From: Nemertoderma westbladi
Lineage: Eukaryota; Animalia; Xenacoelomorpha
Direction of reading: 5' to 3'
DNA length: 64,000 nt
Assembly (NCBI GenBank): GCA_032718475.1
Contig: JAUCBJ010009099.1
Coordinates: forward strand, 1-64,000
Below, one piece after another: positions 9,074 through 42,286 of the stretch (within the stretch, counting starts at the first letter, position 1; each line of letters begins with the position of its first letter). The translations under genes and the position numbers were made by a program. Below the pieces are notes generated by a model. It was not told where the DNA came from. It saw only the letters and a list, made by a program, of their open reading frames with translations, and did no database searches.

Positions 9074-9339
9074 ATGTCTTATGTTCGTCCATATAACCCG
9101 AATGTGAGGGTTGGGAATTGGTTTGAGGATTTAGCGTTAGAAGAAGATTTAATGAAAGATTTTTTGGCTAAAAGAGAAAATGGTGAGCTGCTTTATCAGA
9201 AGAAGCAGGCAGCCATGGCAGCGAAGGCTAAAGTAGTTGAGGGGATATCATTGGCAAAAACAAGTTTGTCGACTACTTCAGATGGTAATGTTCATTTCGG
9301 CGACTGTGTCATGGTTCTCAATGAGGGAGATACTGACAG
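9074..9339 (+). CDS. CFAP161: Cilia- and flagella-associated protein 161, exon 1
   Basis: YNPNVRVGNWFEDLALEEDLMKDFLAKRENGELL...DGNVHFGDCVMVLN matches the CFAP161 N-terminus. Donor AG|GTTGGT at 9340 is phase 2 and compatible with exon 2. Confidence 0.85.
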
Positions 9340-9464
9340 GTTGGTTCCTAAAGATGGAGACAAAAATTACTTTATGTACCTGAGCAAGAAAAGGGTTGGG
9401 TTGTGAGAGTTTGGACCTTACAGTATGCTATTAGTTAGAATCCTTTCCCTTGGTTATTACGTTT

Positions 9465-9606
9465 TATTTATATATTATATTATGTTATATTATATATTAT
9501 TTATATATTATATTATGTTATATTATATATTATTTATATATTATATTATGTTTATTATATTATATTATATATTATTTTATATTATATTATATTACTGTTT
9601 ATTATA
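9465..9606. repeat. AT-rich low-complexity (TATTA)n tract in CFAP161 intron 1
   Basis: Visible degenerate tattata repeats. Confidence 0.85.
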
Positions 9607-9892
9607 ATTTTTGTTGCGCCACAGCTGGCATTGGCGCCCGGCTCTATAATCCATACCGATAGCACCTCATAAAGGGGGGTAGACCTGGAAATACAACCCG
9701 AAATCTCGTACTGTACAGTATGCTGCAATACCATTGATCTGTAGCCATTGTGCTCAACCGTAATGTATGTGTATGTAATTTGCCGTCTTATCCACTCACC
9801 TACAATTTGCTAAATGAAATTAAAAAAATATAATAATAGGAAGCCACACATTCACCCCAAATAGTAATAATAATCTGTTTATTATCCGGCAG

Positions 9893-10142
9893 ACGCAAGT
9901 ATTTCGCTTCTGTGGATCCCCGAGATACGAATACGTTGTGTGTAAATCCATCACCCGTGGAAGGAAGCGATAGGGTAGAACTCCCGGTAGGAGCCATGGT
10001 CAACACAGACCCCAATTCTAGGAACGTATTCCAGATCCAATCGGTAGATGGTACTCCAGATGGCTCTCCTCTGACATTTGGGCAGAATTTCACTTTGGCT
10101 ATTCCGAATACTGACTTGCGTTTATTCTCAGACGTCGCTTCT
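9893..10142 (+). CDS. CFAP161: CFAP161 exon 2
   Basis: Acceptor ccggcag|A completes AGA. Translation ...RNVFQIQSVDG...LTFGQNFTL...LRLFSDVAS. Donor TCT|GTAAGT is phase 0. Confidence 0.85.
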
Positions 10143-10189
10143 GTAAGTCTTGTGTACAACTCGACATTCTATGTAATATATACCGTGCG

Positions 10190-10270
10190 GATCCCCTAAA
10201 GGGCATTTTGAAAAAATGTATCTAGACCGCTCTAGATACATTTTTTTCACAATGTCCCTTTAGGGGCTCC
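10190..10270. repeat. Near-perfect ~80-nt inverted repeat (hairpin) in CFAP161 intron 2
   Basis: CCCCTAAAGGGCATTTTGAAAAAATGTATCTAGA-ccgc-TCTAGATACATTTTTTTCACAATGTCCCTTTAGGGG. Confidence 0.85.
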
Positions 10271-11069
10271 GTAAATATAATAAATATAATAGTCAATATA
10301 TAGAAATAAGTAAATTAAATATACTCGAAAATGTTGTAGATTTAGTTTAATGGGGCTAGAACAAGGTGTACTAAATAACATTAATGACATTAAACATTAA
10401 ATAACATATTGAAAATTTTAGCTACGTGGTGAGCTTTCTTATTTTTTGATAGACAGACAGACATACAAACAGACATACATATAGTCCAGTTTCCGTCAAA
10501 CATGAAAACTGACTTCGGAAATGAACTCAGCGACCATGAAAACTCCTCTAATGAAATTTTTATCTAGGTGAGGTATTTCCTTATGTTTTTACCGACAGAC
10601 AGACAGACAAACATACATTCTAAATACCGTCAAAAATAGCAACTGGTATCGGAAATGGAAGCATCGACTACGAAAACCCCCATAGGAGTAATTTTAGTAA
10701 TGTTGCTTTGAAGTGTTTTGTTCACCCTCCAACTTTAATGACAATTTTCAGCCTCCAATAATTGGAGGCCAATTCTCGCTGCATGACCTGTTATTTAGTA
10801 CGCCTGGGCTTGCGGCAAAGTAAGCGTGCTTATCGTACCAGCTGATACTGCTCTTTCAATCGTTGTGTGTTGGTCCCCAAACGTTTGAAGGCTTAATAAC
10901 TCAGTAAATATTTGATGAAATTCAACCAAACGTACGCCGTCCTACACGCGATTACGTCTATTCCTACAATAAATCGGTACTGATTGAGCCCCTATATTTA
11001 CCGGTCTCTGAACAGATTTTCATTTGATTTTATTTAAATTGCTTTTTTTTATTTTTTACTAATATTAAC

Positions 11070-11109
11070 ACCACTGAAGACGCCTGTAAGGGTGAAATGC
11101 GCATATGTA
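11070..11109 (+). ncRNA. Minimal hammerhead-like motif with decayed stem I, on the sense strand of CFAP161 intron 2
   Basis: CUGAAGA C GCCU-GUAA-GGGU GAAA UGCGCA UA. It has the same palindromic stem III (AUGCGCAU) and similar flanks as the 48513 copy. Confidence 0.55.
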
Positions 11110-11434
11110 CGATAAACTAGTATTTGTTAATTGATCCTAGAGCCTCACCTACCCCCTTATAGTCTCCTAATACGGAGCCCCCCATAATCTTAATGAACAC
11201 GCCACGCTCGATGTCATTTAGAAACGTTAAATACCTAAATATAAACCAAACTTGTAACACATGTAGTCTATCGAAAGTTTGGATGCAATTTGCGTCTCCA
11301 ATCTGCCTGATAGAGAATGTCTACGCAACGGTTGAAATGGCGGTACCCAAGCTGACTTTCTTTGTCCTGTGATTCCTTAAGTTGAGCTGATAGAGTTACA
11401 ACTATTAATCTTATTAATCTTATATTAATTTCAG

Positions 11435-11511
11435 TTATTCACCAACCCGAATCCTGTTAGATCCCAAGACCTGAAGATGGCAAGCGATAATCGCTACCTA
11501 ACGCACTGGAT
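11435..11511 (+). CDS. CFAP161: CFAP161 exon 3
   Basis: Acceptor taatttcag|. Translation LFTNPNPVRSQDLKMASDNRYLTHW plus AT. Donor AT|GTAAGT is phase 2 and joins exon 4 in frame. Confidence 0.8.
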
Positions 11512-12256
11512 GTAAGTATGTAACGTATTGGGTGTAACAATACAACGCACTGGATGTAAGTATGTAACGTATTGGGTGTAACAATACAACACACTGGATA
11601 TAAGTACGTAACGTATTGGGTGTAACAATACAACACACTGGATGTAAGTATGTAACGTATTGGGTGTAACAATACAACGCACTGGATGTAAGTACGTAAC
11701 GTATTGGGTGTAACAATACAACGCACTGGATGTAAGTATGTAACGTATTGGGTGTAACAATACAACGCACTGGATGTAAGTATGTAACGTATTGGGTGTA
11801 ACAATACAACGCACTGGGTATAAGTATGTAACGTATTGGGTGTAACAATACAACGCACTGGATGTAAGTATGTAACGTATTGGGTGTAACAATACAACGC
11901 ACTGGATGTAAGTATGTAACGTATTGGGTGTAACAATACAACGCACTGGGTATAAGTATGTAACGTATTGGGTGTAACAATACAACGCACTGGATGTAAG
12001 TATGTAACTTATTGGGTGTAACAATACAACGCACTGGATGTAAGTATGTAACGTATTGGGTGTAACAATACAACGCACTGGATGTAAGTATGTAACGTAT
12101 TGGGTGTAACAATACAACGCACTGGGTATAAGTATGTAACGTATTGGGTGTAACAATACAACGCACTGGATGTAAGTATGTAACGTATTGGGTGTAACAA
12201 TACAACGCACTGGATGTAAGTATGTAACGTATTGGGTATAATAATACAATGCACTG
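11500..12256 (+). repeat. 44-bp tandem array (17 units) straddling the exon 3 splice donor of CFAP161
   Basis: Unit AACGCACTGGAT|GTAAGTATGTAACGTATTGGGTGTAACAATAC is 12 exonic plus 32 intronic nt. 11500 to 12248 is 748 nt, or 17 x 44. Confidence 0.95.
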
Positions 12257-13182
12257 TCACTGGTTGCAATATAAAGCAATGTATGGGAGAATCTTTTAGG
12301 CTCGTTAAGCCAAGGAGTGCCTGTTCACCACCACGGGTGATCTTCCACAGTAAACCCTTCTACTCCCCAAATATAAATGAATGAATATAATACTAGAGAC
12401 GGCGTCAAGACGCGTTAAGCAAGTCGGAAGTCATGAATCAAATGTAAATTCCATCAACAATGTTTACATGGTCAGAAGGGAAGTGTTATTTACCTATGGT
12501 CAAAGAGATATCCCACTCTGTAACTTGACAATTGCTCAAATCCATTCACCTGAATGGCACAGTAGAGTAAACTATTCAAACTATAATGTTAGCCTATGGA
12601 GAATCATATGTGGCTGATTAAACATACACTTTTATAAACATGCAGTCTCCACAGTATTAATGTTGGTATTAATGTAGCCAACACATTGTGTACCTAACAG
12701 TCATTCAGCAGTAAATTAGAAGAGTGAGTAACTTGTAGATTTTCCATAGGACGCATTGGGAAGAGTTATTCAGCTGAGGCGGTAATAGATTGCAAACTAA
12801 ACCAACCAGTTGGCAGCCTCATCGATTTATACTAAGCCTGTGTAGAACCACAAACTAAACCATCCAGTAATGTTTGCTTTGCCAGAGAGTGGTAGGGTCT
12901 AAACAAACAGTATGGGTGTACTAAGTACAATAATCTTGCCTTTCCTTATAGCCTACTAGTAAAACTTGGCAACCAACACGTTTTACTATGACTGTGTATA
13001 CAGTAATTCTGACATTATTAAGCCATATTTCATCATGAACACCAGCTGTTATTTTACCATTGCTTTTAATTTCGCGACAAAATAATGTCAAAAAACTAAA
13101 TATATCGAATACCACACATAGAATCGATCTGAAAATTTGTAACGCGATTATGAACCACCAAAGCAATGTACTTGCAAACTTT

Positions 13183-13358
13183 CAGTCAGTCAGTCAGTCA
13201 GTCAGTCAGTCAGTCAGTCAGTCAGTCAGTCAGTCAGTCAGTCAGTCAGTCAGTCAGTCAGTCAGTCAGTCAGTCAGTCAGTCAGTCAGTCAGTCAGTCA
13301 GTCAGTCAGTCAGTCAGTCAGTCAGTCAGTCAGTCAGTCAGTCAGTCAGTTAGTCAGT
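13183..13358. repeat. (CAGT)n microsatellite, about 44 copies
   Basis: Directly visible. Confidence 0.98.
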
Positions 13359-13391
13359 GTTATTCTTACAGTAATCAAGTCTAACGACTTG

Positions 13392-14100
13392 CTAATAATA
13401 CTGCTACTATCGGCATGCTATCTGCATCTGTTATCTGCATCTTCAAGGCCAGTGTCCTTTAAGATGCGTTGCGTCTCAAGAAGGTCATGGGTTGTCCACC
13501 ATCGGTATATTCTCGATGAGGCCGCCAAAGCACAAGATTGTGGACAGGCTGGTCATCACGGCGAAAGCAATGTCCTGCAAAGCGTTTCCGTTAAAGTTTC
13601 AAGATAGGGAAGACTAATGGAACACCTCCAGTGTTGTACAGAGTCTGATTGGAGATGTGTTCATTGTACTTGACACAATGAACCCGGCGCAGCATTCTTG
13701 TATAAGTGCAATCCAGAGATTTGGTATCCTCTGTAGTTAGAGCCCATCATGGACTCCCATATAAGAGTACTGGTACTACTGCTGCCCTAAATATATCGAA
13801 TCTTGAGATTCCGCTTTATTTTATGGGACTCCCAAATCCTGGACAGACTATTTAACGCTGCCCATCATGTCTTCCCCTTACGTATCCGAAGGTCTTGACT
13901 ATCGGATCCATGATCCTAAGTAGCAGAAGTCATCCACGTGCTCAATCAAGCCATCCCTGAAGCGATCAGCGAGCCCTTACGATCAGACATTTCTTTATGG
14001 CTGTCCAGGTTCACTATCACTGTCATAATTTTGGTCTACTTGGAGTTTGCAAAAAGACCAACACTAGAAGCAACCTGATCCAATGAGCAGAGGAGTCTTT
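13392..14100 (-). mobile_element. Antisense decayed LINE 3' fragment (same family as 2682-3054) in CFAP161 intron 3
   Basis: The reverse complement of 13440-13590 matches 2787-2935 (cgctttgcaggacattgctttcgccgtg...gacactggcctt). Confidence 0.8.
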
Positions 14101-14377
14101 GGGTTCCCTCTAGTGCGCAGTCTAGATCAGTAAGGTACTTTACTGGAGTTCCTCTACTGTACTTCTTGTGTGTATGTGCGCAGTCTAGATCAGTAAGGTA
14201 CTTTACTGGAGTTCCTCTACTACTGTACTTGATTTGTATATGAAATGATTAAATTGGCGTATGAAGTAATTGAAGTAATATGAAGTAATGAAGTAAATAT
14301 GAAGTAAATATGAAGTAATAGCATAATTTAATCGTATAATTTAATCCATTTACACGTAAGTTTTATTTCACCGGCAG

Positions 14378-14612
14378 ATGCGAATATTTTGACCCGTTAT
14401 TACGTCCGGAATACGAGGGGATGTCGGTAAAGGTGAATACAAAGTTAATAATCCGACACGCTAAAACTGGGAACGCCTTGAGTGTAAACGGGGACAAAGC
14501 CATGGAAGGGACCGACTGTTCCGAGTACCCAGCCACTGCGCTCACCCAGCTGGATAGCCATAAAGCCGAGAAACCAACCAATCACTGGGCCCTGGTCATG
14601 GAAACATCCTAG
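14378..14612 (+). CDS. CFAP161: CFAP161 exon 4 (terminal)
   Basis: Acceptor ccggcag|A. Translation CEYFDPLLRPEYEGMSVKVNTKLIIRHAKTG...LDSHKAEKPTNHWALV matches the CFAP161 motifs DP.LR.EYEG and LDSH..EKP.NHW. Stop TAG at 14610-14612. Confidence 0.88.
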
Positions 14613-15861: not shown

Positions 15862-18800
15862 AGGAGGGGTAAAAAAAACACATACAACTAGAAAGAAGGT
15901 GTAAACAACACATACAACTAGAAATAAGGTGTAAAAAACACATACAACTAGAAAGAAGGTGTAAAAAACACATACAACTATAAAGAAGGTGTAAAAAAAC
16001 ACATACAACTAGAAAGAAGGTNNNNNNNNNNNNNNNNNNNNNNNNNNNNNNNNNNNNNNNNNNNNNNNNNNNNNNNNNNNNNNNNNNNNNNNNNNNNNNN
16101 NNNNNNNNNNNNNNNNNNNNNTAAAAAACACATACAACTAGAAAGAAGGTGTAAAAAACACATACAACTAGAAAGAAGGTGTAAAAAACACATACAACTA
16201 GAAAGAAGGTGTAAAAAACACATACAACTAGAAAGAAGGTGTAAAAAACACATACAACTAGAAAGAAGGTGTAAAAAACACATACAACTAGAAAGAAGGT
16301 GTAAAAAACACATACAACTAGAAAGAAGGTGTAAAAAACACATACAACTAGAAAGAAGGTGTAAAAAACACATACAACTAGAAAGAAGGTGTAAAAAACA
16401 CATACAACTAGAAAGAAGGTGTAAAAAACACATACAACTAGAAAGAAGGTGTAAAAAACACATACAACTAGAAAGAAGGTGTAAAAAACACATACAACTA
16501 GAAAGAAGGTGTAAAAAACACATACAACTAGAAAGAAGGTGTAAAAAACACATACAACTAGAAAGAAGGTGTAAAAAACACATACAACTAGAAAGAAGGT
16601 GTAAAAAACACATACAACTAGAAAGAAGGTGTAAAAAACACATACAACTAGAAAGAAGGTGTAAAAAACACATACAACTAGAAAGAAGGTGTAAAAAACA
16701 CATACAACTAGAAAGAAGGTGTAAAAAACACATACAACTAGAAAGAAGGTGTAAAAAACACATACAACTAGAAAGAAGGTGTAAAAAACACATACAACTA
16801 GAAAGAAGGTGTAAAAAACACATACAACTAGAAAGAAGGTGTAAAAAACACATACAACTAGAAAGAAGGTGTAAAAAACACATACAACTAGAAAGAAGGT
16901 GTAAAAAACACATACAACTAGAAAGAAGGTGTAAAAAACACATACAACTAGAAAGAAGGTGTAAAAAACACATACAACTAGAAAGAAGGTGTAAAAAACA
17001 CATACAACTAGAAAGAAGGTGTAAAAAACACATACAACTAGAAAGAAGGTGTAAAAAACACATACAACTAGAAAGAAGGTGTAAAAAACACATACAACTA
17101 GAAAGAAGGTGTAAAAAACACATACAACTAGAAAGAAGGTGTAAAAAACACATACAACTAGAAAGAAGGTGTAAAAAACACATACAACTAGAAAGAAGGT
17201 GTAAAAAACACATACAACTAGAAAGAAGGTGTAAAAAACACATACAACTAGAAAGAAGGTGTAAAAAACACATACAACTAGAAAGAAGGTGTAAAAAACA
17301 CATACAACTAGAAAGAAGGTGTAAAAAACACATACAACTAGAAAGAAGGTGTAAAAAACACATACAACTAGAAAGAAGGTGTAAAAAACACATACAACTA
17401 GAAAGAAGGTGTAAAAAACACATACAACTAGAAAGAAGGTGTAAAAAACACATACAACTAGAAAGAAGGTGTAAAAAACACATACAACTAGAAAGAAGGT
17501 GTAAAAAACACATACAACTAGAAAGAAGGTGTAAAAAACACATACAACTAGAAAGAAGGTGTAAAAAACACATACAACTAGAAAGAAGGTGTAAAAAACA
17601 CATACAACTAGAAAGAAGGTGTAAAAAACACATACAACTAGAAAGAAGGTGTAAAAAACACATACAACTAGAAAGAAGGTGTAAAAAACACATACAACTA
17701 GAAAGAAGGTGTAAAAAACACATACAACTAGAAAGAAGGTGTAAAAAACACATACAACTAGAAAGAAGGTGTAAAAAACACATACAACTAGAAAGAAGGT
17801 GTAAAAAACACATACAACTAGAAAGAAGGTGTAAAAAACACATACAACTAGAAAGAAGGTGTAAAAAACACATACAACTAGAAAGAAGGTGTAAAAAACA
17901 CATACAACTAGAAAGAAGGTGTAAAAAACACATACAACTAGAAAGAAGGTGTAAAAAACACATACAACTAGAAAGAAGGTGTAAAAAACACATACAACTA
18001 GAAAGAAGGTGTAAAAAACACATACAACTAGAAAGAAGGTGTAAAAAACACATACAACTAGAAAGAAGGTGTAAAAAACACATACAACTAGAAAGAAGGT
18101 GTAAAAAACACATACAACTAGAAAGAAGGTGTAAAAAACACATACAACTAGAAAGAAGGTGTAAAAAACACATACAACTAGAAAGAAGGTGTAAAAACAC
18201 ATACAACTAGAAAGAAGGTGTAAAAAACACATACAACTAGAAAGAAGGTGTAAAAAACACATACAACTAGAAAGAAGGTGTAAAAAACACATACAACTAG
18301 AAAGAAGGTGTAAAAAACACATACAACTAGAAAGAAGGTGTAAAAAACACATACAACTAGAAAGAAGGTGTAAAAAACACATACAACTAGAAAGAAGGTG
18401 TAAAAAACACATACAACTAGAAAGAAGGTGTAAAAAACACATACAACTAGAAAGAAGGTGTAAAAAACACATACAACTAGAAAGAAGGTGTAAAAAACAC
18501 ATACAACTAGAAAGAAGGTGTAAAAAACACATACAACTAGAAAGAAGGTGTAAAAAACACATACAACTAGAAAGAAGGTGTAAAAAACACATACAACTAG
18601 AAAGAAGGTGTAAAAAACACATACAACTAGAAAGAAGGTGTAAAAAACACATACAACTAGAAAGAAGGTGTAAAAACACATACAACTAGAAAGAAGGTGT
18701 AAAAAACACATACAACTAGAAAGAAGGTGTAAAAAACACATACAACTAGAAAGAAGGTGTAAAAAACACATACAACTAGAAAGAAGGTGTAAAAAACACA

Positions 18801-21800
18801 TACAACTAGAAAGAAGGTGTAAAAAACACATACAACTAGAAAGAAGGTGTAAAAAACACATACAACTAGAAAGAAGGTGTAAAAAACACATACAACTAGA
18901 AAGAAGGTGTAAAAACACATACAACTAGAAAGAAGGTGTAAAAAACACATACAACTAGAAAGAAGGTGTAAAAAACACATACAACTAGAAAGAAGGTGTA
19001 AAAAACACATACAACTAGAAAGAAGGTGTAAAAAACACATACAACTAGAAAGAAGGTGTAAAAAACACATACAACTAGAAAGAAGGTGTAAAAAACACAT
19101 ACAACTAGAAAGAAGGTGTAAAAAACACATACAACTAGAAAGAAGGTGTAAAAAACACATACAACTAGAAAGAAGGTGTAAAAAACACATACAACTAGAA
19201 AGAAGGTGTAAAAAACACATACAACTAGAAAGAAGGTGTAAAAAACACATACAACTAGAAAGAAGGTGTAAAAAACACATACAACTAGAAAGAAGGTGTA
19301 AAAAACACATACAACTAGAAAGAAGGTGTAAAAAACACATACAACTAGAAAGAAGGTGTAAAAACACATACAACTAGAAAGAAGGTGTAAAAACACATAC
19401 AACTAGAAAGAAGGTGTAAAAACACATACAACTAGAAAGAAGGTGTAAAAACACATACAACTAGAAAGAAGGTGTAAAAACACATACAACTAGAAAGAAG
19501 GTGTAAAAAACACATACAACTAGAAAGAAGGTGTAAAAACACATACAACTAGAAAGAAGGTGTAAAAACACATACAACTAGAAAGAAGGTGTAAAAACAC
19601 ATACAACTAGAAAGAAGGTGTAAAAAACACATACAACTAGAAAGAAGGTGTAAAAAACACATACAACTAGAAAGAAGGTGTAAAAAACACATACAACTAG
19701 AAAGAAGGTGTAAAAAACACATACAACTAGAAAGAAGGTGTAAAAAACACATACAACTAGAAAGAAGGTGTAAAAAACACATACAACTAGAAAGAAGGTG
19801 TAAAAAACACATACAACTAGAAAGAAGGTGTAAAAAACACATACAACTAGAAAGAAGGTGTAAAAAACACATACAACTAGAAAGAAGGTGTAAAAAACAC
19901 ATACAACTAGAAAGAAGGTGTAAAAAACACATACAACTAGAAAGAAGGTGTAAAAAACACATACAACTAGAAAGAAGGTGTAAAAAACACATACAACTAG
20001 AAAGAAGGTGTAAAAAACACATACAACTAGAAAGAAGGTGTAAAAAACACATACAACTAGAAAGAAGGTGTAAAAACACATACAACTAGAAAGAAGGTGT
20101 AAAAAACACATACAACTAGAAAGAAGGTGTAAAAAACACATACAACTAGAAAGAAGGTGTAAAAAACACATACAACTAGAAAGAAGGTGTAAAAACACAT
20201 ACAACTAGAAAGAAGGTGTAAAAACACATACAACTAGAAAGAAGGTGTAAAAACACATACAACTAGAAAGAAGGTGTAAAAACACATACAACTAGAAAGA
20301 AGGTGTAAAAAACACATACAACTAGAAAGAAGGTGTAAAAAACACATACAACTAGAAAGAAGGTGTAAAAAACACATACAACTAGAAAGAAGGTGTAAAA
20401 ACACATACAACTAGAAAGAAGGTGTAAAAAACACATACAACTAGAAAGAAGGTGTAAAAAACACATACAACTAGAAAGAAGGTGTAAAAAACACATACAA
20501 CTAGAAAGAAGGTGTAAAAAACACATACAACTAGAAAGAAGGTGTAAAAACACATACAACTAGAAAGAAGGTGTAAAAAACACATACAACTAGAAAGAAG
20601 GTGTAAAAAACACATACAACTAGAAAGAAGGTGTAAAAACACATACAACTAGAAAGAAGGTGTAAAAAACACATACAACTAGAAAGAAGGTGTAAAAAAC
20701 ACATACAACTAGAAAGAAGGTGTAAAAAACACATACAACTAGAAAGAAGGTGTAAAAAACACATACAACTAGAAAGAAGGTGTAAAAACACATACAACTA
20801 GAAAGAAGGTGTAAAAAACACATACAACTAGAAAGAAGGTGTAAAAAACACATACAACTAGAAAGAAGGTGTAAAAACACATACAACTAGAAAGAAGGTG
20901 TAAAAAACACATACAACTAGAAAGAAGGTGTAAAAAACACATACAACTAGAAAGAAGGTGTAAAAAACACATACAACTAGAAAGAAGGTGTAAAAACACA
21001 TACAACTAGAAAGAAGGTGTAAAAAACACATACAACTAGAAAGAAGGTGTAAAAACACATACAACTAGAAAGAAGGTGTAAAAAACACATACAACTAGAA
21101 AGAAGGTGTAAAAACACATACAACTAGAAAGAAGGTGTAAAAAACACATACAACTAGAAAGAAGGTGTAAAAACACATACAACTAGAAAGAAGGTGTAAA
21201 AAACACATACAACTAGAAAGAAGGTGTAAAAAACACATACAACTAGAAAGAAGGTGTAAAAAACACATACAACTAGAAAGAAGGTGTAAAAAACACATAC
21301 AACTAGAAAGAAGGTGTAAAAAACACATACAACTAGAAAGAAGGTGTAAAAAACACATACAACTAGAAAGAAGGTGTAAAAAACACATACAACTAGAAAG
21401 AAGGTGTAAAAAACACATACAACTAGAAAGAAGGTGTAAAAAACACATACAACTAGAAAGAAGGTGTAAAAACACATACAACTAGAAAGAAGGTGTAAAA
21501 ACACATACAACTAGAAAGAAGGTGTAAAAAACACATACAACTAGAAAGAAGGTGTAAAAACACATACAACTAGAAAGAAGGTGTAAAAACACATACAACT
21601 AGAAAGAAGGTGTAAAAAACACATACAACTAGAAAGAAGGTGTAAAAAACACATACAACTAGAAAGAAGGTGTAAAAAACACATACAACTAGAAAGAAGG
21701 TGTAAAAAACACATACAACTAGAAAGAAGGTGTAAAAACACATACAACTAGAAAGAAGGTGTAAAAAACACATACAACTAGAAAGAAGGTGTAAAAACAC

Positions 21801-24629
21801 ATACAACTAGAAAGAAGGTGTAAAAAACACATACAACTAGAAAGAAGGTGTAAAAAACACATACAACTAGAAAGAAGGTGTAAAAACACATACAACTAGA
21901 AAGAAGGTGTAAAAAACACATACAACTAGAAAGAAGGTGTAAAAAACACATACAACTAGAAAGAAGGTGTAAAAAACACATACAACTAGAAAGAAGGTGT
22001 AAAAAACACATACAACTAGAAAGAAGGTGTAAAAAACACATACAACTAGAAAGAAGGTGTAAAAAACACATACAACTAGAAAGAAGGTGTAAAAACACAT
22101 ACAACTAGAAAGAAGGTGTAAAAAACACATACAACTAGAAAGAAGGTGTAAAAAACACATACAACTAGAAAGAAGGTGTAAAAACACATACAACTAGAAA
22201 GAAGGTGTAAAAACACATACAACTAGAAAGAAGGTGTAAAAACACATACAACTAGAAAGAAGGTGTAAAAAACACATACAACTAGAAAGAAGGTGTAAAA
22301 AACACATACAACTAGAAAGAAGGTGTAAAAACACATACAACTAGAAAGAAGGTGTAAAAACACATACAACTAGAAAGAAGGTGTAAAAAACACATACAAC
22401 TAGAAAGAAGGTGTAAAAAACACATACAACTAGAAAGAAGGTGTAAAAAACACATACAACTAGAAAGAAGGTGTAAAAACACATACAACTAGAAAGAAGG
22501 TGTAAAAAACACATACAACTAGAAAGAAGGTGTAAAAAACACATACAACTAGAAAGAAGGTGTAAAAACACATACAACTAGAAAGAAGGTGTAAAAAACA
22601 CATACAACTAGAAAGAAGGTGTAAAAAACACATACAACTAGAAAGAAGGTGTAAAAACACATACAACTAGAAAGAAGGTGTAAAAACACATACAACTAGA
22701 AAGAAGGTGTAAAAACACATACAACTAGAAAGAAGGTGTAAAAAACACATACAACTAGAAAGAAGGTGTAAAAACACATACAACTAGAAAGAAGGTGTAA
22801 AAACACATACAACTAGAAAGAAGGTGTAAAAAACACATACAACTAGAAAGAAGGTGTAAAAACACATACAACTAGAAAGAAGGTGTAAAAAACACATACA
22901 ACTAGAAAGAAGGTGTAAAAACACATACAACTAGAAAGAAGGTGTAAAAAACACATACAACTAGAAAGAAGGTGTAAAAACACATACAACTAGAAAGAAG
23001 GTGTAAAAAACACATACAACTAGAAAGAAGGTGTAAAAACACATACAACTAGAAAGAAGGTGTAAAAAACACATACAACTAGAAAGAAGGTGTAAAAACA
23101 CATACAACTAGAAAGAAGGTGTAAAAAACACATACAACTAGAAAGAAGGTGTAAAAAACACATACAACTAGAAAGAAGGTGTAAAAAACACATACAACTA
23201 GAAAGAAGGTGTAAAAACACATACAACTAGAAAGAAGGTGTAAAAACACATACAACTAGAAAGAAGGTGTAAAAACACATACAACTAGAAAGAAGGTGTA
23301 AAAAACACATACAACTAGAAAGAAGGTGTAAAAACACATACAACTAGAAAGAAGGTGTAAAAAACACATACAACTAGAAAGAAGGTGTAAAAACACATAC
23401 AACTAGAAAGAAGGTGTAAAAAACACATACAACTAGAAAGAAGGTGTAAAAACACATACAACTAGAAAGAAGGTGTAAAAAACACATACAACTAGAAAGA
23501 AGGTGTAAAAAACACATACAACTAGAAAGAAGGTGTAAAAACACATACAACTAGAAAGAAGGTGTAAAAAACACATACAACTAGAAAGAAGGTGTAAAAA
23601 CACATACAACTAGAAAGAAGGTGTAAAAAACACATACAACTAGAAAGAAGGTGTAAAAACACATACAACTAGAAAGAAGGTGTAAAAAACACATACAACT
23701 AGAAAGAAGGTGTAAAAACACATACAACTAGAAAGAAGGTGTAAAAAACACATACAACTAGAAAGAAGGTGTAAAAACACATACAACTAGAAAGAAGGTG
23801 TAAAAAACACATACAACTAGAAAGAAGGTGTAAAAACACATACAACTAGAAAGAAGGTGTAAAAAACACATACAACTAGAAAGAAGGTGTAAAAACACAT
23901 ACAACTAGAAAGAAGGTGTAAAAAACACATACAACTAGAAAGAAGGTGTAAAAAACACATACAACTAGAAAGAAGGTGTAAAAACACATACAACTAGAAA
24001 GAAGGTGTAAAAAACACATACAACTAGAAAGAAGGTGTAAAAAACACATACAACTAGAAAGAAGGTGTAAAAAACACATACAACTAGAAAGAAGGTGTAA
24101 AAACACATACAACTAGAAAGAAGGTGTAAAAAACACATACAACTAGAAAGAAGGTGTAAAAAACACATACAACTAGAAAGAAGGTGTAAAAAACACATAC
24201 AACTAGAAAGAAGGTGTAAAAAACACATACAACTAGAAAGAAGGTGTAAAAACACATACAACTAGAAAGAAGGTGTAAAAAACACATACAACTAGAAAGA
24301 AGGTGTAAAAACACATACAACTAGAAAGAAGGTGTAAAAAACACATACAACTAGAAAGAAGGTGTAAAAACACATACAACTAGAAAGAAGGTGTAAAAAA
24401 ACACATACAACTAGAAAGAAGGGGTGAAAAACACATACAACTAGAAAGAAGGTATAAAAAACACATACAACTAGAAAGAAGGTGTAAAAAAACATACAAC
24501 TAGAAATAAGGTGTAAAAAAACACATACAACTAGAAAGAAGGTGTAAAAAAACATACAACTAGAAATAAGGTGTAAAAAAACACATACAACTAGAAAGAA
24601 GGTGTAAAAAACACATACAACTAGAAAGA
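15862..24629. repeat. 30/29-bp satellite GAAAGAAGGTGTA(5-6)CACATACAACTA, about 290 copies, containing a 100-N gap
   Basis: Almost invariant tandem unit. Variation is only A5 versus A6, except at the degenerate edges. True length is unknown because of the gap. Confidence 0.98.
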
Positions 24630-27600: not shown

Positions 27601-28590
27601 ACCTTCAGGTTGCCTCCGCTCCGGTAGAGAGGAGCCTTCAGGTTGCCTCCAGTAGAGAGGAGCCTTCGGGTTTCATCCGCTCCGGTAGAGAGGAGCCTTC
27701 GGGTTGCCTCTAGTAAAGAGGCACCTTCGGGTTACCTCCAGTAGAGAGACACCTTCAGGTTGCCTCCGCTCCGGTAGAGAGGAGCCTTCAGGTTGCCTCC
27801 AGTAGTGAGGAGCCTTCGGGTTTCCTCCGCTCCGGTAGAGAGGAGCCTTCGGGTTGCCTCTGGAAGAGGCACCTTCGGGTTACCTCCGGTAGAGGCACCT
27901 TTGGGTTGCCTCTGCTCCGGTAGAGATGCATCTTCGGGTTACCTCTGGTAGAGAGGCACCTTCGGGTTACCTCCAGTAGAGACATCTTCGGGTTGCCTCC
28001 GCTCCGGTAGAGATGCACCTTCGGGTTACCTCTCGTAGAGAGGCACCTTCGGGTTACCTCCAGTAGAGACATCTTCGGGTTGCCTCCGCTCCGGTAGAGA
28101 TGCACCTTCGGGTTACCTCTCGTAGAGAGGCACCTTCGGGTTAGCTCCGGTAGAGAGACCCTTTGGGTTGCCTCTGCTCCGGTAGAGAGGAGCCTTCGGG
28201 TTGCCTCCGCTCCAGTAGAGAGGCACCTTCGGGTTACCTCCAGTAGAGAGACACCTTCGGATTGCCTCTGCTCTGGTAGAGAGGAGCCTTCGGGTTTCCT
28301 CCGCTCCAATAGAGATGAGCCTTCAGGTTGCCTCTGGTAGAGAGGCACCTTCGGGTTACCTCCGGTAGAGAGACACTTTCGGGTTGCCTCTGCTCCAGTA
28401 GAGAGGAGCCTTCGGGTTGCCTCCGGTAGAGAGGCACCTTCGGGTTGCCTCCACTCCGGTAGAGAGGAGCCTTCGGGTTGCCTCTGCTCCAGTATAGAGG
28501 AGCCTTCAAGTTGCCTCCGCTCTGGTAGGGAGGAGCCTTCAGGTTGTCTCCGGTATAGAAGAACCTTTGGGGTTGTCTCTGTTACAGAGG
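24630..28590. repeat. GC-rich 28/33-bp minisatellite (GGTAGAGAGGAGCCTTCGGGTTGCCTCC[GCTCC]), roughly 125-135 units
   Basis: Tandem units with an optional 5-nt insert and many point variants; it directly abuts the 30-bp satellite. Confidence 0.95.
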
Positions 28591-29852: not shown

Positions 29853-30392
29853 TTAACGTTTTATAGTAAACAGTTCTCCGGCCGCCGGTAGAGGAGCTAG
29901 AGCACCGGAAGTGACGTCAGGTAAACGACTGAGATCCGGTAGACTCTGCAGATGATCCCTGAGTTCTCGTCGGACTTTAGTGACCTGATCCAGATTGGAC
30001 TGGTAGCGCTGGAGAGTTTCGTTGTCTGCCGCTACGCGTCGCTCTTGTTCCTTAATGAATGCGGATATGAGACGGTAGGTGGCGCGGCGCTCCTCCATCT
30101 CGCTTTGCAACCGCGCGTTGTAGTCGCCTAGCAACCCATGGGCGCGGTCCACCTTGTCAGACAGATCGGACAGCTCCTCAGCCTGGGTCGGTGAGGTAAG
30201 TCTGTCCACCGAGCTGATATCCTGTATCTCGGCCGGCAGCTGGGCGATCCGTTCACGAACCTCCGCGTCCCCGCTAGGGGCGCTCTCTAACTCCTGCAGA
30301 CGCCGAACCAACTCATCGGTTCCTGGAGGGTCCGGTAGAGGCTCTACTAGGTCCTCGTTACGCCGCCGTTTAGCCACAGGACTCGCCGCAAT
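29853..30392 (-). CDS. RPRD1B: Regulation of nuclear pre-mRNA domain-containing protein 1 (RPRD1A/B family), exon 2 with CREPT coiled coil
   Basis: Branch point and acceptor ctctaactgttacag|ATT. Motifs LESAPSGDAEVRERIAQLP, YNARLQSEMEERR and HLQSLPDLSRLPDVT...LAPLP.AGELF. A versus B paralog is not resolvable. Confidence 0.85.
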   Translation of the reverse strand: MAASPVAKRRRNEDLVEPLPDPPGTDELVRRLQELESAPSGDAEVRERIAQLPAEIQDISSVDRLTSPTQAEELSDLSDKVDRAHGLLGDYNARLQSEMEERRATYRLISAFIKEQERRVAADNETLQRYQSNLDQVTKVRRELRDHLQSLPDLSRLPDVTSGALAPLPAAGELFTIKR

Positions 30393-30830
30393 CTGTAACA
30401 GTTAGAGTGACAGATGCAGATGGGTCCATTACATTACACACAAGGCTCCTATGTAATATCTTGTAAAAAAGTCAAAATAAAATAAAATACAAAGTTAATG
30501 AAATTAATTTATTGTGGTGATTTAAAAGAATTGGGTATAATATTATCCCAAATATTTATTTGGGAATAATATAGAAAATAGATAGATTAGGTCTATATTA
30601 TTGAAATCTATCTACATTGTAAGAGGGGCTAAAACTCCGAAGACTTTATAAAATTAAAAACGCTTTTATATTTCAACAGACTCTAAAAACAGACTCAGAC
30701 AATTCCAAATCACTTTACAACCAAAGTTGACTTGTAGGTTCATTTGCCTTTAGAGTTATGAGGCAGGCTATTAATACATAATACATATTGGTAGTTGGTT
30801 TGGTACCGGTAGTCTACAGGCCTAACTCAC

Positions 30831-31292
30831 CTCGGCACTCCGTGACGTCTCTGCGACCCGTTGTGGCGGGGACAACGGCGATATCTCCCGCCCCCTTCTG
30901 CCCCCCAGGCAGCCCCCCAACTCGACTAGGAACCCCGACTCGTAAACCCCCCGATCCCTCCATATCTCCAGTAGTCTACTCAACGCCCCCAACGTCTTCG
31001 TATCCGCACCCCCACTAACATCCTCGAACGCCTCTAGCAACACGTCCCGGAACTCCTTACTGAACTCCTCCCCCTTCTTCTTACTATTCTGTATGACGTC
31101 ATTAGACAGATACATGAGGGTGAGCTTCCGCGGCGGTTTGCAGAGTTTCAGCTCTTTGAGCCATACTTCGACGATAGTTTTGGCTCGTTTCCTGTGGTGA
31201 ATCAGCCACAAAGCGAGAGTTTGTATGCTCTGCTGGGACTGAGTGAGTTCTGATATCTTCCTAGACAAAGCCGTCTCCGAGAAACTAGACAT
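30831..31292 (-). CDS. RPRD1B: RPRD1-family exon 1 (CTD-interacting domain)
   Basis: MSSFSETALSRKISELTQSQQSIQTLALWLIHHRK...KLTLMYLSNDVIQNSKKKG. Donor GAG|GTGAGT is phase 0. Spliced product is 333 aa. Confidence 0.88.
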
Positions 31293-35814: not shown

Positions 35815-35972
35815 GGAAGACCATAATTGTTGTAATGCACCTGCAATGGGAGGTTCGATTCCTGTATGGTTCTTTGTGATAATGATGGTTGTCCCGCTGG
35901 ATGGTATTCACTTTCATTGTGTAAAGCTAATGAAAAAATCCTGAAGGAAAGTGGTGATGCGCTAAATGCCCT
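35815..35972 (+). pseudogene. Frameshifted ING-type PHD finger remnant, probably transposon-borne
   Basis: MVLCDNDGCPAGWY / HFHCVKL / GKW*CAKC across frameshifts. Confidence 0.55.
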
Positions 35973-36808: not shown

Positions 36809-37356
36809 TATAGCATTTGATTACGCTCAAAAACCAATATTTTACTCTTCAATATCAGTATGGTATTCTTCAATATAAATATTGCGAGTAATATCAATAA
36901 TATTACATCATCGTGCAATATTATTAACGGTACATGTAATTCTATATATTCTATTGAGTATTTAATAATTAACATAAGTTCAATCAATATTGTGCAAATA
37001 TTGATTCAATATACAAACATATTGAATTAATATGTTGACATGTTGGCAACATATTGAGTTAATATTGGCACAAATTAATCAATATGTTCACAACATATTA
37101 ATTAAATATCTTTTGTTCAGAATGTCAACATGTTGATTCAATATTTGCGAATATTCATTAAATATGTTTGTATATTGAATCAATATTTTTACACAATATT
37201 AATTGAATTTCTGTTATTGAATATACAATATTGAATTAACGTGTAAATATCGCATGATGATGTAATATTATTGATATTTCTCGCAATATTGATATTGAAG
37301 AATATTCTGATATTGAAGAGTGAAATATTGAATTTTGAGAGTAATCAAATGCCATA
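36809..37356. mobile_element. Foldback/MITE-like ~550-bp imperfect palindrome
   Basis: gtatagcatttgattacgctcaaaaaccaatattttactcttcaatatcag... is the reverse complement of ...ctgatattgaagagtgaaatattgaattttgagagtaatcaaatgccatac. The symmetry continues towards the centre at about 37080. Confidence 0.8.
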
Positions 37357-38281
37357 CAGGTACAGGTTATTTGGCAATACGATGACGATCGCCGTTACTT
37401 TACAAGCACATCTGTTTCGTGCCGTGCCTCTCTGTTTTTTTTGCTATGCAATAAAATGACACTAAACCGTAATAGGAAAGGAAACTGATACATCGTTATT
37501 GTTAGGTTACTGGTGTTGTGTTATGCTATGGAGAGTGTAGAGAGGCGCTGCACCAGAGCGATTGTTGTGTTATTAATTTAGGTCAGTGAATGCTATATAG
37601 AAATGATTATATTTAATAAATATATTTGTAGACAGATTTTTTTGGGGGGGGGGGGGGGGGATGTACCAGAATAATATTTCATGTAAATCATGAAATATTC
37701 AACGATCGATACTAAGCCTGTTCTGGAATTGTCTCCATGGCGACATATTTATAAAATAACATACCTTTGAAAATTCCAATTTTATTTCGAGATACAAAAA
37801 GTTCGTGGAGAACTTCCAACACCTTCTGTATAGAAACCGGTAAATAATCAGTTAAATAATCAAAATATAAACCAATTTAAACAAGAAAAATAAAAAGCCG
37901 ACGAAATACCACCAACAGCAACCGGTCTGATCAACTGTAATAATTACTTAGACACCACCAATCCGACAGTACTGGGACAATAATGGCCGACCAAACCATT
38001 AGGTACGACAACATTAAAGTTGAACGTAACTGAACTTGTGAACTCAACAAATAAAACTGTTAGAATTTAATAAGTTGTAACTTAAAGTTACTGGGCAACA
38101 ACAATAACAACAGTTTTAACATTTTTATCAATCGTCACAATTCCAATGGCCGTAACACTGACGATGTAATAGTAGGTTAGGAAGTTAACCACGGATTCAG
38201 TCACAACTCCATAACAGTACTGCATACACGGTTGAACTACTATCACCACCGGAATAGCTAATGAGTCACTCTGGTTAAATC

Positions 38282-38287
38282 TTTATT
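38282..38287 (-). promoter_or_regulatory. Candidate polyadenylation signal AATAAA of RPN1
   Basis: TTTATT on the + strand, about 85 nt downstream of the RPN1 stop. Confidence 0.45.
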
Positions 38288-38371
38288 ATGAACTAATACC
38301 GATTGCCCCCATGTCTTGTATTTATAAACTAAAAGTCGATTCAGTTAGCACTAATGGGTTGCCGTAGCGAC

Positions 38372-39067
38372 CTATAGTTGACCGGTAAGATGGTCGATCT
38401 TTCCCCGGAGTTCTTCCCGTTTATTGCGATTGGCCTTCTCGTTGTCGAGGTACTGCGGACGCGTCATCCTCCCATTGGTCACCTTCTCGGCCAACCCAAT
38501 GGCCTGCATTACGACGTCCCGATACTCCATCTCCCGTCGTTGGATCTCGGCGACCGCATCCACGTCGGCCAGCCGCTTCGCCGTCTCCGCCAGTGTCGCA
38601 TTCATCGCCTTCAACTCGACGTCGAGTTTCTTCCGGGCGTTCGCGAACGCGTTGGAATCCTTCGAGGATTTAAACTTGGTGACGACGGCGTCGTACTGCG
38701 AGTAGATCCCGACGCGTTTACGATGGAGTTCTAGGAACTGATGGACGAGAGCTACGGCGCGCAGTCGGCTCTCGGACTCGGCGTCCTGGTGGATGGAGAA
38801 GTCGAGACGCACGTAGATGATAACGAGGAGGAAGAAGACGTAGAGAGCCGTGACCACGATGATGGGCTCGTGGAGAAGGAGGATGTGGTTGAAGGTGTAC
38901 GATATTTCGAGGTCCTGGATGTGGTTCTCCACGAGGTTGGTGTGTCGAAGCACCACAACGGGACGTCCCACCGTGTCCAGGTAGGTCTTTACTACCTCGT
39001 CAGGACGCCGTTCAACAGGGTAAGGGGTCGTTACCTCGATGTCTCCAACACGTTCTGGGAGAATGAC
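38372..39067 (-). CDS. RPN1: Ribophorin I (OST subunit 1), exon 2
   Basis: Acceptor ctgcccag|GTC. Translation VILPERVGDIEVTTPYPVERRPDEVVKTYLDTVGRPVVV, then TM helix EPIIVVTALYVFFLLVIIYVRLDFSI. Length is 696 nt, in frame. Confidence 0.92.
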   Translation of the reverse strand, partial: VILPERVGDIEVTTPYPVERRPDEVVKTYLDTVGRPVVVLRHTNLVENHIQDLEISYTFNHILLLHEPIIVVTALYVFFLLVIIYVRLDFSIHQDAESESRLRAVALVHQFLELHRKRVGIYSQYDAVVTKFKSSKDSNAFANARKKLDVELKAMNATLAETAKRLADVDAVAEIQRREMEYRDVVMQAIGLAEKVTNGRMTRPQYLDNEKANRNKREELRGKIDHLTGQL

Positions 39068-39136
39068 CTGGGCAGGTAATTAATAATAGTACATTAGTAT
39101 AGGGCCTAATTCTAATCTTTATAAATATATCGATAC

Positions 39137-41221
39137 ACTTACCTTGTTTACCTCCAACCGATCCACTAACCTTGACCTCCAACCGATCCACTTACCTTGA
39201 CCTCCAACCGATCCACTATACTTGACCTCCAACCGATCCACTTACCTTGACCTCCACCAACCGATCCACTTACCTTGACCTCCACCAACCGATCCACTTA
39301 CCTTGACCTCCAACCGATCTACTTACCTTGACCTCCACCAACCGATCCACTTACCTTGACCTCCACCACCGATCCACTTACCTTGACCTCCAACCGATCC
39401 ACTTACCTTGACCTCCAACCGATCCACTTACCTTGACCTCCAACCGATCCACTTCCCTTGACCTCCAACCGATACACTTACCTTGACCTCCACCAACCGA
39501 TCCACTTACCTTGACCTCCACCAACCGATACACTTACCTTGACCTCCACCAACCGATCCACTTACCTTGACCTCCAACCGATCCACTTACCTTGACCTCC
39601 AAGTGTCCAACTGATCCACTTACCTTGACCTCCACCAACCGATCCACTTACCTTGACCTCCACCAACCGATCCACTTACCTTGACCTCCACCAACCGATC
39701 CACTTACCTTGACCTCCAACCGACCCACTTACCTTGACCTCCACCAACCGATCCACTTACCTTGACCTCCACCAACCGATTCACTTAAGTTGACCTCCAG
39801 CCGATCCACTTACCTTGACCTCCAACCGATCCACTTACCTTGACCTCCAACCGATCCACTTACCTTGACCTCCAACCGATCCACTTACCTTGACCTCCAC
39901 CAACCGATCCACTTACCTTGACCTCCACCAACCGATCCACTTACCTTGACCTCCACCAACCGATCCACTTACCTTGACCTCCAACCGATCCACTAACCTT
40001 GACCTCCAACCGATCCACTTCCCTTGACCTCAACCGATCCACTTACCTTGACCTCCACCAACCGATCCACTTACCTTGACCTCCACCAACCGATCCACTT
40101 ACCTTGACCTCCACCAACCGATCCACTTACCTTGACCTCCAACCGATCCACTTACCTTGACCTCCACCAACCGATCCACTTACCTTGACCTCCACCAACC
40201 GATCCACTAACCTTGACCTCCAACCGATCCACTTACCTTGACCTCCAACCGATCCACTTACCTTGACCTCCACCAACCGATCCACTTACCTTGACCTCCA
40301 CCAACCGATCCACTTACCTTGACCTCCACCAACCGATCCACTTACCTTGACCTCCAACCGATCCACTAACCTTGACCTCCAACCGATCCACTTCCCTTGA
40401 CCTTCAACCGATCCACTTACCTTGACCTCCACCAACCGATACACTTACCTTGACCTCCACCAACCGATACACTTACCTTGACCTCCACCAACCGATCCAC
40501 TTACCTTGACCTCCAACCGATCCACTTACCTTGACCTCCACCAACCGATCCATTTACCTTGACCTCCACCAACCGATTCACTTAAGTTGACCTCCAGCCG
40601 ATCCACTTACCTTGACCTCCAACCGATCCACTTACCTTGACCTCCAACCGATCCACTTACCTTGACCTCCAAGTGTCCAACTGATCCACTTACCTTGACC
40701 TCCACCAACCGATCCACTTACCTTGACCTCCAGCCGATCCACTTACCTTGACCTCCAACCGATCCACTTACCTTGACCTCCAACCGATCCACTTACCTTA
40801 ACCTCCACCAACCGATCCACTTACCTTGACCTCCACCAACCGATCCACTTACCTTGACCTCCACCAACCGATCCACTTACCTTGACCTCCAACCGATCCA
40901 CTTACCTTGACCTCCACCAACCGATTCACTTACCTTGACCTCCAGCCGATCCACTTACCATGACCTCCAACCGATCCACTTACCTTGACCTCCAACCGAT
41001 CCACTTACCTTGACCTCCAAGTGTCCAACTGATCCACTTACCTTGACCTCCAACCGATCCACTTACCCTGACCTCCACCAACCGATCCACTTACCCTGAC
41101 CTCCACCAACCGATCCACTTACCTTGACCTCCTCCAACCGATCCACTTACCTTGACCTCAAACCGATCCACTTACCTTGACCTCCAACTGATCCACTTAC
41201 CTTGACCTCCAAACGATCCAC
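39137..41221 (-). repeat. 25/28-bp tandem array (about 75-80 units) straddling the RPN1 splice donor and filling about 97% of the intron
   Basis: Unit GTGGATCGGTT[GGT]GGAGGTCAAG|GTAA is the last 21 exonic nt plus GTAA. Junctions between units regenerate AAG|GTAAGT. Confidence 0.96.
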
Positions 41222-42286
41222 CACGTAATCGTCGAACACATGATCCACCAGCCGGATCCGAAGACGATATTCGTTGTCCCGGGTAAAGAGGTACTGGTAG
41301 GTGGGCAGGTTGTAGCCGACGGTAAAGTGGGTCTTCCAACCCCCGAACAACGGAAACCGCGGACGAATTGTTACGTCCACGGAGTCGCTCTGCTCCCACA
41401 GATTCGACGTGGAGATGTTACCGATTTCGTCCCGGTAGTAAACGTCTTTCGCCAACGCCGGGAGAATCATCTTAAACTCCTTGAAAGCGGACAAGGTCTC
41501 CTGGGAACGTTGGTAGTCATAACGACTGAAGGTTCCTTTGAGAGTCGCTCCACTGTGCAGGAAGTTAAAGGTCTCCTCGACGGCGATGTTACCCCAGTGA
41601 GAGACTTCGATGACGCGTTGCATATCAGTGATAGTGATGAAGGCTTTGTTGTTCTCGTAGTGGATGGTGAGAGGCTGATGGGAGAAGGGTTCTACATCTA
41701 CGTAGGGACCGTATGTGATGAGGTTCTCTGATTGGGAAGTGGGATCCAGACGGGAGAATGTTTCAGTCTTCGTGGGGACTGGTAGATTGGCCGTGGTTGT
41801 TACTGACTTGGTTTTGTACGGAGAGTAGAAGTAGTAGTTGCCGGTGTATAGGACTAGTTGGCGTTCCGATTGACGGATGCTGGTAGGATAAGGGCGCAGG
41901 TTGTGGCTGTAAACCAAGGTCGCTTCTATCTTTGTCGAGTCGCCGGAGATTAGCGGCTTCTCCAAGGTCACCTCGACTCCGCTCTTATCTGCCTCGAGAG
42001 TTACTCGTTTGACTGGAAGTTCCACGGTTTCATCGCCGTTGTCGGTTGCGGTCGCCCCGAAGAAAGCGAGATTCTCGTCCAGATTTGGATCTAAGCCCAA
42101 TACGTAGGAGTCAGTTGGTTTAGAGCCGAGGTTCTCTATGGTGATGGTCGATGTTATCTTAACTAACTGAGAGGAGAGATCAATGGCCCGTTCCACTTTC
42201 CTGTTGATGAGATTTTCATTATTGGGCAAACCGAAAACTAACGTGGAAGTTAGTCCAGCGCACAACAACAATTGCAGCATCATCAT
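41201..42286 (-). CDS. RPN1: Ribophorin I, exon 1
   Basis: Signal peptide, then motifs IEVSHWGNIAVEE, FSRYDYQR, YYRDEIGNISTS and RPRFPLFGGWKT. It ends VDRLEVK|GTAAGT in phase 0. Spliced product is 593 aa. Confidence 0.94.

What the first reader, a model, noticed from the sequence alone, without database searches (positions are those of the whole stretch)
9074..42286. Candidate genome-wide process: tandem amplification anchored on exon|intron donor junctions
Seen: 2 of the 5 modelled coding introns in this window begin with an array that includes the exon end and donor. Both start in the last 12-21 exonic nt, expand into the intron, have unit lengths that are not multiples of 3 (25, 28, 44) and leave the protein unchanged. 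Inference: this seems too frequent for random minisatellite placement, although the sample is tiny. It suggests either a mutational hotspot at 5' splice sites (for example R-loop or U1-associated breaks with microhomology-mediated re-replication) or selective retention of donor arrays. Either would be a distinct route of intron expansion and possibly intron gain.
Basis: inference. Interest (0 to 1): 0.82.

Follow-up and report, generated by a model that had tools for sequence, protein, structure and literature searches.

The report
Splice-donor "mirage" minisatellites in two genes
In two neighbouring animal genes, the end of an exon and its splice signal are copied head to tail 17 and 78 times into the next intron, and the assembled transcript-like contigs use only the first signal; this is a known, likely harmless kind of repeat that may be unusually common at splice donors in this genome.

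Summary
CFAP161 intron 3 opens with 17 copies of a 44-nt unit, and RPN1's only coding intron with 78 copies of a 25/28-nt unit. They start 12 and 21 nt inside the exon. That is 2 of 5 coding donors and 0 of 5 acceptors. Spliced contigs join the first donor to the next exon in both genes, and unspliced (DNA-like) runs of two other samples hold both arrays.

The structure is known: lancelet 'mirages', the human F7 VNTR, chicken 'exon stuttering'. This scan has noted it in many other genomes.

Selective retention fails its test: GT in downstream copies is more variable than other positions, and none of 83 intact copies would give a full-length protein. Nothing points to intron gain.

Genome-wide enrichment could not be tested, because no genome is held. 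The in-window chance is 1e-4 to 7e-3, post hoc. Unchecked notes on three other genes of this genome list 10 more donor arrays, so enrichment is likely (about 70%). The cause is likely repeat seeding at GC/G-rich exon ends, filtered by selection. A splicing-coupled lesion is possible (about 25%) and untested.

The parts
9074..14612 (+). CFAP161 gene, 4 coding exons (9074-9339, 9893-10142, 11435-11511, 14378-14612)
   Evidence: Open spliced frame of 275 aa; Pfam CFAP161 on exon 4 (E 1.7e-12) and weakly on exon 2; joint 10142>11435 and exon 3>exon 4 in contig of run X1
11500..12256 (+). 44-nt minisatellite, 17.2 copies; unit = last 12 nt of exon 3 + first 32 nt of intron 3; 12 of 16 downstream copies keep GT
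   Evidence: present in runs X2, X3, X4
11512..11513 (+). Authentic (first) donor GT of CFAP161 intron 3
   Evidence: X1 contig leaves the stretch after 11511 and continues with the first 30 nt of exon 4
38372..42286 (-). RPN1 (ribophorin I) gene, 2 coding exons (42286-41201, 39067-38372)
   Evidence: Open spliced frame of 593 aa; Pfam Ribophorin_I positions 2-349 on exon 1 and 351-436 on exon 2
39131..41221 (-). 25/28-nt minisatellite, 78 donor-containing units, starting 21 nt inside exon 1; fills 2070 of 2133 intron nt; 70 of 76 internal copies keep GT
   Evidence: present in runs X2 and X4
41199..41200 (-). Authentic (first) donor GT of the RPN1 intron
   Evidence: X1 and X5 contigs end at 41199 (2 letters shared with exon 2) and continue with exon 2 sequence
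39068..39130 (-). Unique remainder of the RPN1 intron with the acceptor
   Evidence: sequence; no exon-end copy near it
29853..31292 (-). RPRD1-like gene, one intron (30393-30830) without an array; control
53270..53908 (-). In-frame 33-nt x19 array inside the UBR5 coding frame; control showing that array birth here is not confined to donors

Best explanation
Two tandem arrays each repeat an exon end plus its splice donor into the next intron, and spliced contigs use only the first donor; they likely arose by a local copying slip between short near-identical repeats on either side of the junction, likely grew by unequal exchange, and likely persist because they are harmless. Shown: the anatomy, first-donor use in contigs, presence in other samples, decay of the spare GT copies, and a premature stop after every spare copy. 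Inferred: seeding by 7/8 and 8/9 boundary repeats 25 and 44 nt apart, then expansion by block duplication. Also inferred: this repeat-prone genome has more such arrays at donors than uniform placement gives. The likely reason is that GC-rich, sense-strand G-rich exon ends seed repeats more readily than AT-rich introns, and selection removes the seeds that disturb coding sequence while sparing those that spill into the intron behind a working donor. The spare donors are passengers.
For: First-donor splicing in X1 and X5 (RPN1) and X1 (CFAP161), with no cover by those contigs over later copies. Units occur nowhere else in the window. GT is not conserved in spare copies. 0 of 71 RPN1 and 0 of 12 CFAP161 intact spare donors give a full-length frame. 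Boundary near-repeats at both arrays. The window is repeat-prone: 6 large arrays cover 26% of it, and the only wholly coding one has a 33-nt in-frame unit. CDS is 49% GC against 38% in non-repeat intron; both donor arrays have positive sense-strand G skew (0.69, 0.27) and no CC runs. Literature: upstream-most donor wins at F7 (PMC1557585, passages and Discussion); mirages do not disturb splicing (PMC3087553, passages); exon stuttering is tied to GC-rich regions (PMC12954441, part of Results and the Discussion).
Against: Boundary near-repeats are common: 255 of 600 random unique sites are spanned by a 7/8 repeat and 150 of 600 by an 8/9 repeat at 20-50 nt, so they fit the mechanism but explain no site preference. 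An 11-point GC difference may be too small for a large enrichment. The G-richest or GC-richest donors are not always hit: CFAP161 intron 1 (skew 0.56) and RPRD1 (70% GC exon end) have no array, and the CFAP161 intron 3 donor has skew only 0.11 over +-20 nt. Survival alone cannot raise donor arrays above the neutral intronic rate. Contigs drop rare splice forms, and decay of stop-containing mRNA would hide them.
Confidence: 0.55

Rival explanations
1. A transcription- or splicing-coupled mutational hotspot sits at 5' splice sites. R-loops, polymerase pausing or U1 and spliceosome traffic at exon ends in the germ line would cause breaks or fork stalls that are repaired by short tandem duplication.
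For: 2 of 5 coding donors and 0 of 5 acceptors carry arrays. Unchecked notes list 10 more donor arrays in PRPF8, MPDZ and TFCP2 of this genome. Under a null of 0.37-2% per donor, 4 of 10 donors would be expected in at most 0.28 of an assumed 5,000 windows. All 3 genic arrays are G-rich on the sense strand.
Against: No direct test was possible. The UBR5, 21-nt, 28-nt and 30-nt arrays arose away from known donors. Scan notes on other genomes report no bias or an acceptor bias (e1-7908560, e1-9888266; unchecked). The same-genome notes are selected for this pattern.
Confidence: 0.25
2. Chance: arrays fall uniformly in a repeat-rich genome, those at donors survive, and this window was picked because it held two.
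For: At a null of 0.37-2% per donor, 2 of 5 is expected in 0.8-23 of an assumed 5,000 windows. With acceptors and small arrays counted, P is 0.016-0.024. The 95% interval for 2 of 5 is 5-85%.
Against: Three further genes of this genome are noted with 3, 4 of 10 and 3 donor arrays (not checked by me). The 4-of-10 case is improbable under that null; the 3-array cases are so only at its low end.
Confidence: 0.14
3. The arrays are kept by selection for their many donors: U1 loading against early polyadenylation, an isoform dial, or tuning of expression.
For: 70 of 76 and 12 of 16 spare copies still carry GT; both arrays are present in other samples.
Against: GT is more variable than the rest of the unit (odds ratios 2.9 and 9.5 by copy; by distinct alleles 4 of 22 against about 1.7 expected, not significant). 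No spare donor gives a full frame. No contig of X1 or X5 uses one.
Confidence: 0.05
4. The arrays are assembly artefacts.
For: None positive; the exact copy numbers could not be checked, since only the first two or three units were laid.
Against: Array contigs in unspliced runs of samples S2 and S3 at several times unique depth, for example 554 against 44-57 in X3. Units carry heritable-looking variant blocks.
Confidence: 0.01

Closest known systems
Lancelet 'mirage' minisatellites (Adh3, troponin C, globins BflGb6 and BflGb9, PGBD5). Seen: passages of PMC3087553 and PMC3902484; the original Adh3 paper was not held.
   Same: Tandem repeats whose unit spans an exon-intron boundary; normal splicing apparently kept; several loci in one genome; units of 10-72 nt at Adh3; mechanism called unclear; proposed as a route to intron gain.
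   Different: Lancelet cases cover both boundaries and have few copies in the globins (3-6 in BflGb6). Here both arrays are at donors, with 17 and 78 copies. No genome-wide rate is given in the passages read.
Human donor-spanning VNTRs: F7 intron 7 (37 nt), CBS intron 13, 6-16, lamin B2, PDGF. Seen: PMC1557585 passages of Abstract and Introduction, whole Discussion.
   Same: First unit spans the exon-intron junction; downstream pseudo-donors; the most upstream site is the one used (F7, lamin B2, PDGF).
   Different: Isolated loci with 5-25 copies; CBS and 6-16 leak to the next copies, which was not seen in the contigs here.
Chicken 'exon stuttering' on dot chromosomes (Hron et al. 2026). Seen: PMC12954441 abstract, passages and second part of Results section 7, whole Discussion; supplements not read.
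   Same: A genome-scale process of local expansion that copies an exon edge with its splice site into the intron and leaves the exon intact; 236 introns; linked to GC-rich sequence; mechanism speculative.
   Different: Confined mostly to dot chromosomes (190 of 5,572 introns, 3.4%), imperfect repeats, median 4 copies. The main text names 'donor' and 'acceptor' once each and gives no split; the supplements might. Here the arrays are near-perfect and lie in a 38%-GC intron background.
Intron gain by tandem genomic duplication (Rogers model). Seen: passage in PMC3087553; PMC4974935 in a search listing only.
   Same: Duplication of a segment holding AG/GT; the RPN1 unit does hold AG before GT.
   Different: Both introns end at an acceptor in unique sequence with no exon-end copy near it; the arrays enlarge existing introns and create none.

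Membership tests
Mirage / exon-stuttering / F7-type junction minisatellite | Repeat unit spans an exon-intron boundary of the host gene | tested here: met
   12 and 21 exonic nt plus GT in the first unit
Mirage / exon-stuttering / F7-type junction minisatellite | Head-to-tail copies of local origin in the adjacent intron | tested here: met
   17 and 78 copies; no unit match outside its own array within the window; other parts of the genome not searched
Mirage / exon-stuttering / F7-type junction minisatellite | Normal splicing at the authentic site is kept | tested here: met
   Spliced contigs in X1 and X5; contigs only, rare forms not visible
Mirage / exon-stuttering / F7-type junction minisatellite | Copy number varies among individuals | tested here: inconclusive
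   RPN1 array-to-unique depth about 6 in X2 and about 37 in X4, but summed contig depth is not a copy number
Chicken exon stuttering | Concentration on particular GC-rich chromosomes | not testable with these tools
   No genome held
Intron gain by tandem genomic duplication | Both ends of the intron come from duplicated exon sequence | tested here: not met
   Acceptors lie in unique sequence; 0 of 6 acceptor probes beat shuffles. Whether the intron positions are ancestral was not tested.
   7/152 vs 25/1520 and 4/32 vs 10/672
   only the in-window estimate and unchecked notes

The most novel reading that the evidence does not exclude
In this intron-poor animal genome a splicing- or transcription-coupled lesion at 5' splice sites seeds tandem duplications so often that a tenth or more of all donors carry their own minisatellite, well above the 3.4% of chicken dot-chromosome introns and with a strong donor-over-acceptor bias. 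This would make donor amplification a main route of intron growth here and give the first tractable system for how mirages are born.
Probability: 0.22. Interest if true: 0.72.

Novelty: new member of a known kind. Interest (0 to 1): 0.4.

Why it matters
The two arrays are further examples of a described oddity. They show that 70 or more strong spare donors can be ignored, and that one event can enlarge an intron about 30-fold. The open point is the rate. The passages I read call the origin of mirages unclear or speculative and give no donor-versus-acceptor count. If this genome has a high, donor-biased rate, it offers hundreds of independent events with which to separate sequence composition from a splicing-coupled cause. 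It also matters for annotation, since such arrays could mislead gene models.

Tried and rejected
Genome-wide test: not possible, no genome held. The scan's place look-ups returned nothing for this genome or for look-alikes; same-genome notes came up only through word searches. Two word searches for an earlier genome-wide count found none. The acceptor word search showed 8 of 132 findings, none from this genome; that is too small a view to show asymmetry.

The run search listed no RNA holder. X1 and X5 are treated as transcript-like only because their contigs skip introns. X1 may be tied to the source of the window, so it is not independent. Only the first two or three units of each array were laid, so full array lengths in other samples are unknown.

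Non-3n unit length and the 12-21 nt offset were rejected as evidence. Boundary microhomology was rejected as an explanation of site choice. Degenerate junction copies at the other 4 donors and 6 acceptors: none.

Lineage was not determined. The best named RPN1 hits are echinoderms, molluscs and hemichordates at about 49-55% identity. A recalled guess of Xenacoelomorpha was looked up and not settled.

Literature: 8 searches turned up no genome-wide donor-versus-acceptor enrichment test; most subscription papers are not held. PMC2812944 (Results read) and PMC10078293 (passages) concern human repeats at or near junctions and showed no such test in what I read. Two papers sought by recalled DOI were not held. 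No supplements were read; those of PMC12954441 may hold a donor/acceptor split.
Full report
Setting. The window is from an animal genome with few introns. It holds CFAP161 (3 coding introns), an RPRD1-like gene (1), PHF5A (0), RPN1 (1) and UBR5 as a single open frame of about 2,978 codons. It is rich in tandem repeats: six arrays with units of 20 nt or more and at least 10 copies cover 26% of it. No whole genome is held. The lineage was not determined; the best named RPN1 hits are at about 49-55% identity.

Observation. The 44-nt array at 11500-12256 has 17.2 copies and begins 12 nt before the donor of CFAP161 intron 3. The 25/28-nt array at 41221-39131 has 78 donor-containing units and begins 21 nt before the donor of the only RPN1 coding intron. 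It fills 2070 of 2133 nt; collapsed to one unit the intron is about 67 nt. A junction probe found copies at these 2 of 6 donors and at 0 of 6 acceptors, the sixth intron being a putative UBR5 UTR intron without RNA check. Neither unit occurs elsewhere in the window.

Splicing. Contigs of runs X1 and X5, from two studies, stop at the first RPN1 donor and continue into exon 2. A contig of X1 skips CFAP161 intron 2 at GT..AG, stops at 11511 and continues into exon 4. Neither run covered later copies. These runs are not on record as RNA; I infer transcript origin from the skipped introns. Contigs drop rare forms. Use of any spare donor would end in a premature stop: 0 of 71 intact copies in RPN1 and 0 of 12 in CFAP161 give a full frame.

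Reality of the arrays. Unspliced runs of samples S2 (X2, X3) and S3 (X4) hold array contigs at several times unique depth. For the RPN1 array the ratio was about 6 in X2 and about 37 in X4. This is a weak hint of length variation, since summed contig depth is not a copy number.

Chance. Placing seed units uniformly on the collapsed window gives P(at least 2 donor arrays) of 1.4e-4 to 6.6e-3, and up to 2.4e-2 when acceptors and all 33 arrays with units of 10 nt or more are counted. The test is post hoc. At 0.37-2% per donor, 2 of 5 would turn up in 0.8-23 of an assumed 5,000 windows. This window alone therefore does not show a process. Three notes of this scan on other pieces of the same genome describe 3 donor arrays in PRPF8, 4 of 10 in MPDZ and 3 in TFCP2. 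They are unreviewed, selected for the pattern, and I could not check them. If right, 4 of 10 is expected in at most 0.28 of 5,000 windows under the same null. They raised my odds of real enrichment from about 20-25% to about 70%. Notes on other genomes report donor bias, no bias or acceptor bias, so a donor-only rule is not general.

Selection on spare donors. In RPN1, GT positions differ from consensus in 7 of 152 cells against 25 of 1520 at the other 20 core positions of 76 internal units; the first and last units were left out. In CFAP161 the figures are 4 of 32 against 10 of 672 over 16 units. Copies are not independent; by distinct alleles GT holds 4 of 22 against about 1.7 expected, which is not significant. 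GT is thus not conserved, and the trend runs towards loss. Retention for donor content is not supported.

Mechanism. Each array is bounded by a short imperfect direct repeat, one copy in the exon and one in the intron: 7 of 8 nt at 25 nt spacing in RPN1, 8 of 9 nt at 44 nt in CFAP161. This fits birth by slippage or microhomology repair (inference; the model is recalled, and one search gave only listings). Such repeats span 255 of 600 and 150 of 600 random sites, so they do not explain site choice. Recurrent variant blocks in the RPN1 array point to expansion by multi-unit duplication (inference). Tolerance follows from use of the most upstream donor, as shown for human F7 (PMC1557585). For the excess at donors I favour composition plus filtering. 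Coding sequence is 49% GC against 38% in introns, all three genic arrays are G-rich on the sense strand, and the one array wholly inside coding sequence has an in-frame 33-nt unit. Against this, the GC gap is modest and two G-rich or GC-rich donors have no array. An R-loop or spliceosome-linked lesion remains a live, untested rival.

Comparison. The structure meets the three tested defining features of lancelet mirages (PMC3087553, PMC3902484), human F7-type VNTRs and chicken exon stuttering (PMC12954441). The chicken work is already genome-scale, with 3.4% of dot-chromosome introns affected, and lancelet mirages were already suggested to be general in that lineage and a route to intron gain. 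The intron-gain model is not met here: both acceptors lie in unique sequence. Eight paper searches showed no genome-wide donor-versus-acceptor test; supplements and most subscription papers were not seen.

Verdict. Observation confirmed; interpretation partly supported. These are new members of a known kind. The untested part of value is a possibly high, donor-biased rate in this genome. Interest 0.4; the bold reading has probability 0.22 and would deserve 0.72.

Noticed in passing
window 51500-60436 (-): UBR5 (HECT, EDD, MLLE domains; weak zf-UBR) is one open frame of about 2,978 codons with no coding intron; vertebrate UBR5 has dozens of exons (recalled). With RPN1 at one intron this points to heavy intron loss.
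   Followed up: partly
window 53270-53908 (-): In-frame 33-nt array, 19 copies, adds an 11-residue repeat to UBR5 upstream of the MLLE and HECT domains; not checked in RNA.
   Followed up: partly
window 60497-61633 (-): Putative 5' UTR intron of UBR5 with GT..AG ends and no array; no RNA check.
   Followed up: partly
window 15873-28590: Two abutting satellites: a 30-nt unit with about 290 copies (with a 100-N gap at 16022-16121) runs directly into a 28-nt GC-rich unit with about 131 copies.
   Followed up: no
window 8001-8849: GIY-YIG remnant on the minus strand (Pfam E 9e-4, below cut-off) next to a 21-nt x24 array; possibly a Penelope-like element (label recalled).
   Followed up: partly
window 11072-11110 and 48515-48555: Short CTGAAGA...GAAA hairpin motifs that resemble minimal hammerhead ribozymes of Penelope-like elements (resemblance recalled, not tested).
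   Followed up: no
window 1145-3879 (+): Broken non-LTR retrotransposon with a reverse transcriptase fragment (Pfam RVT_1 at 2032-2730).
   Followed up: no
window 11808-11851, 11940-11983, 12116-12159: Three CFAP161 units share a two-base variant that removes the donor GT and creates another GT two bases upstream.
   Followed up: partly
window 62585-63037: 151-nt x3 array holding a donor-like GGTAAG on the plus strand; no exon was found for it.
   Followed up: no
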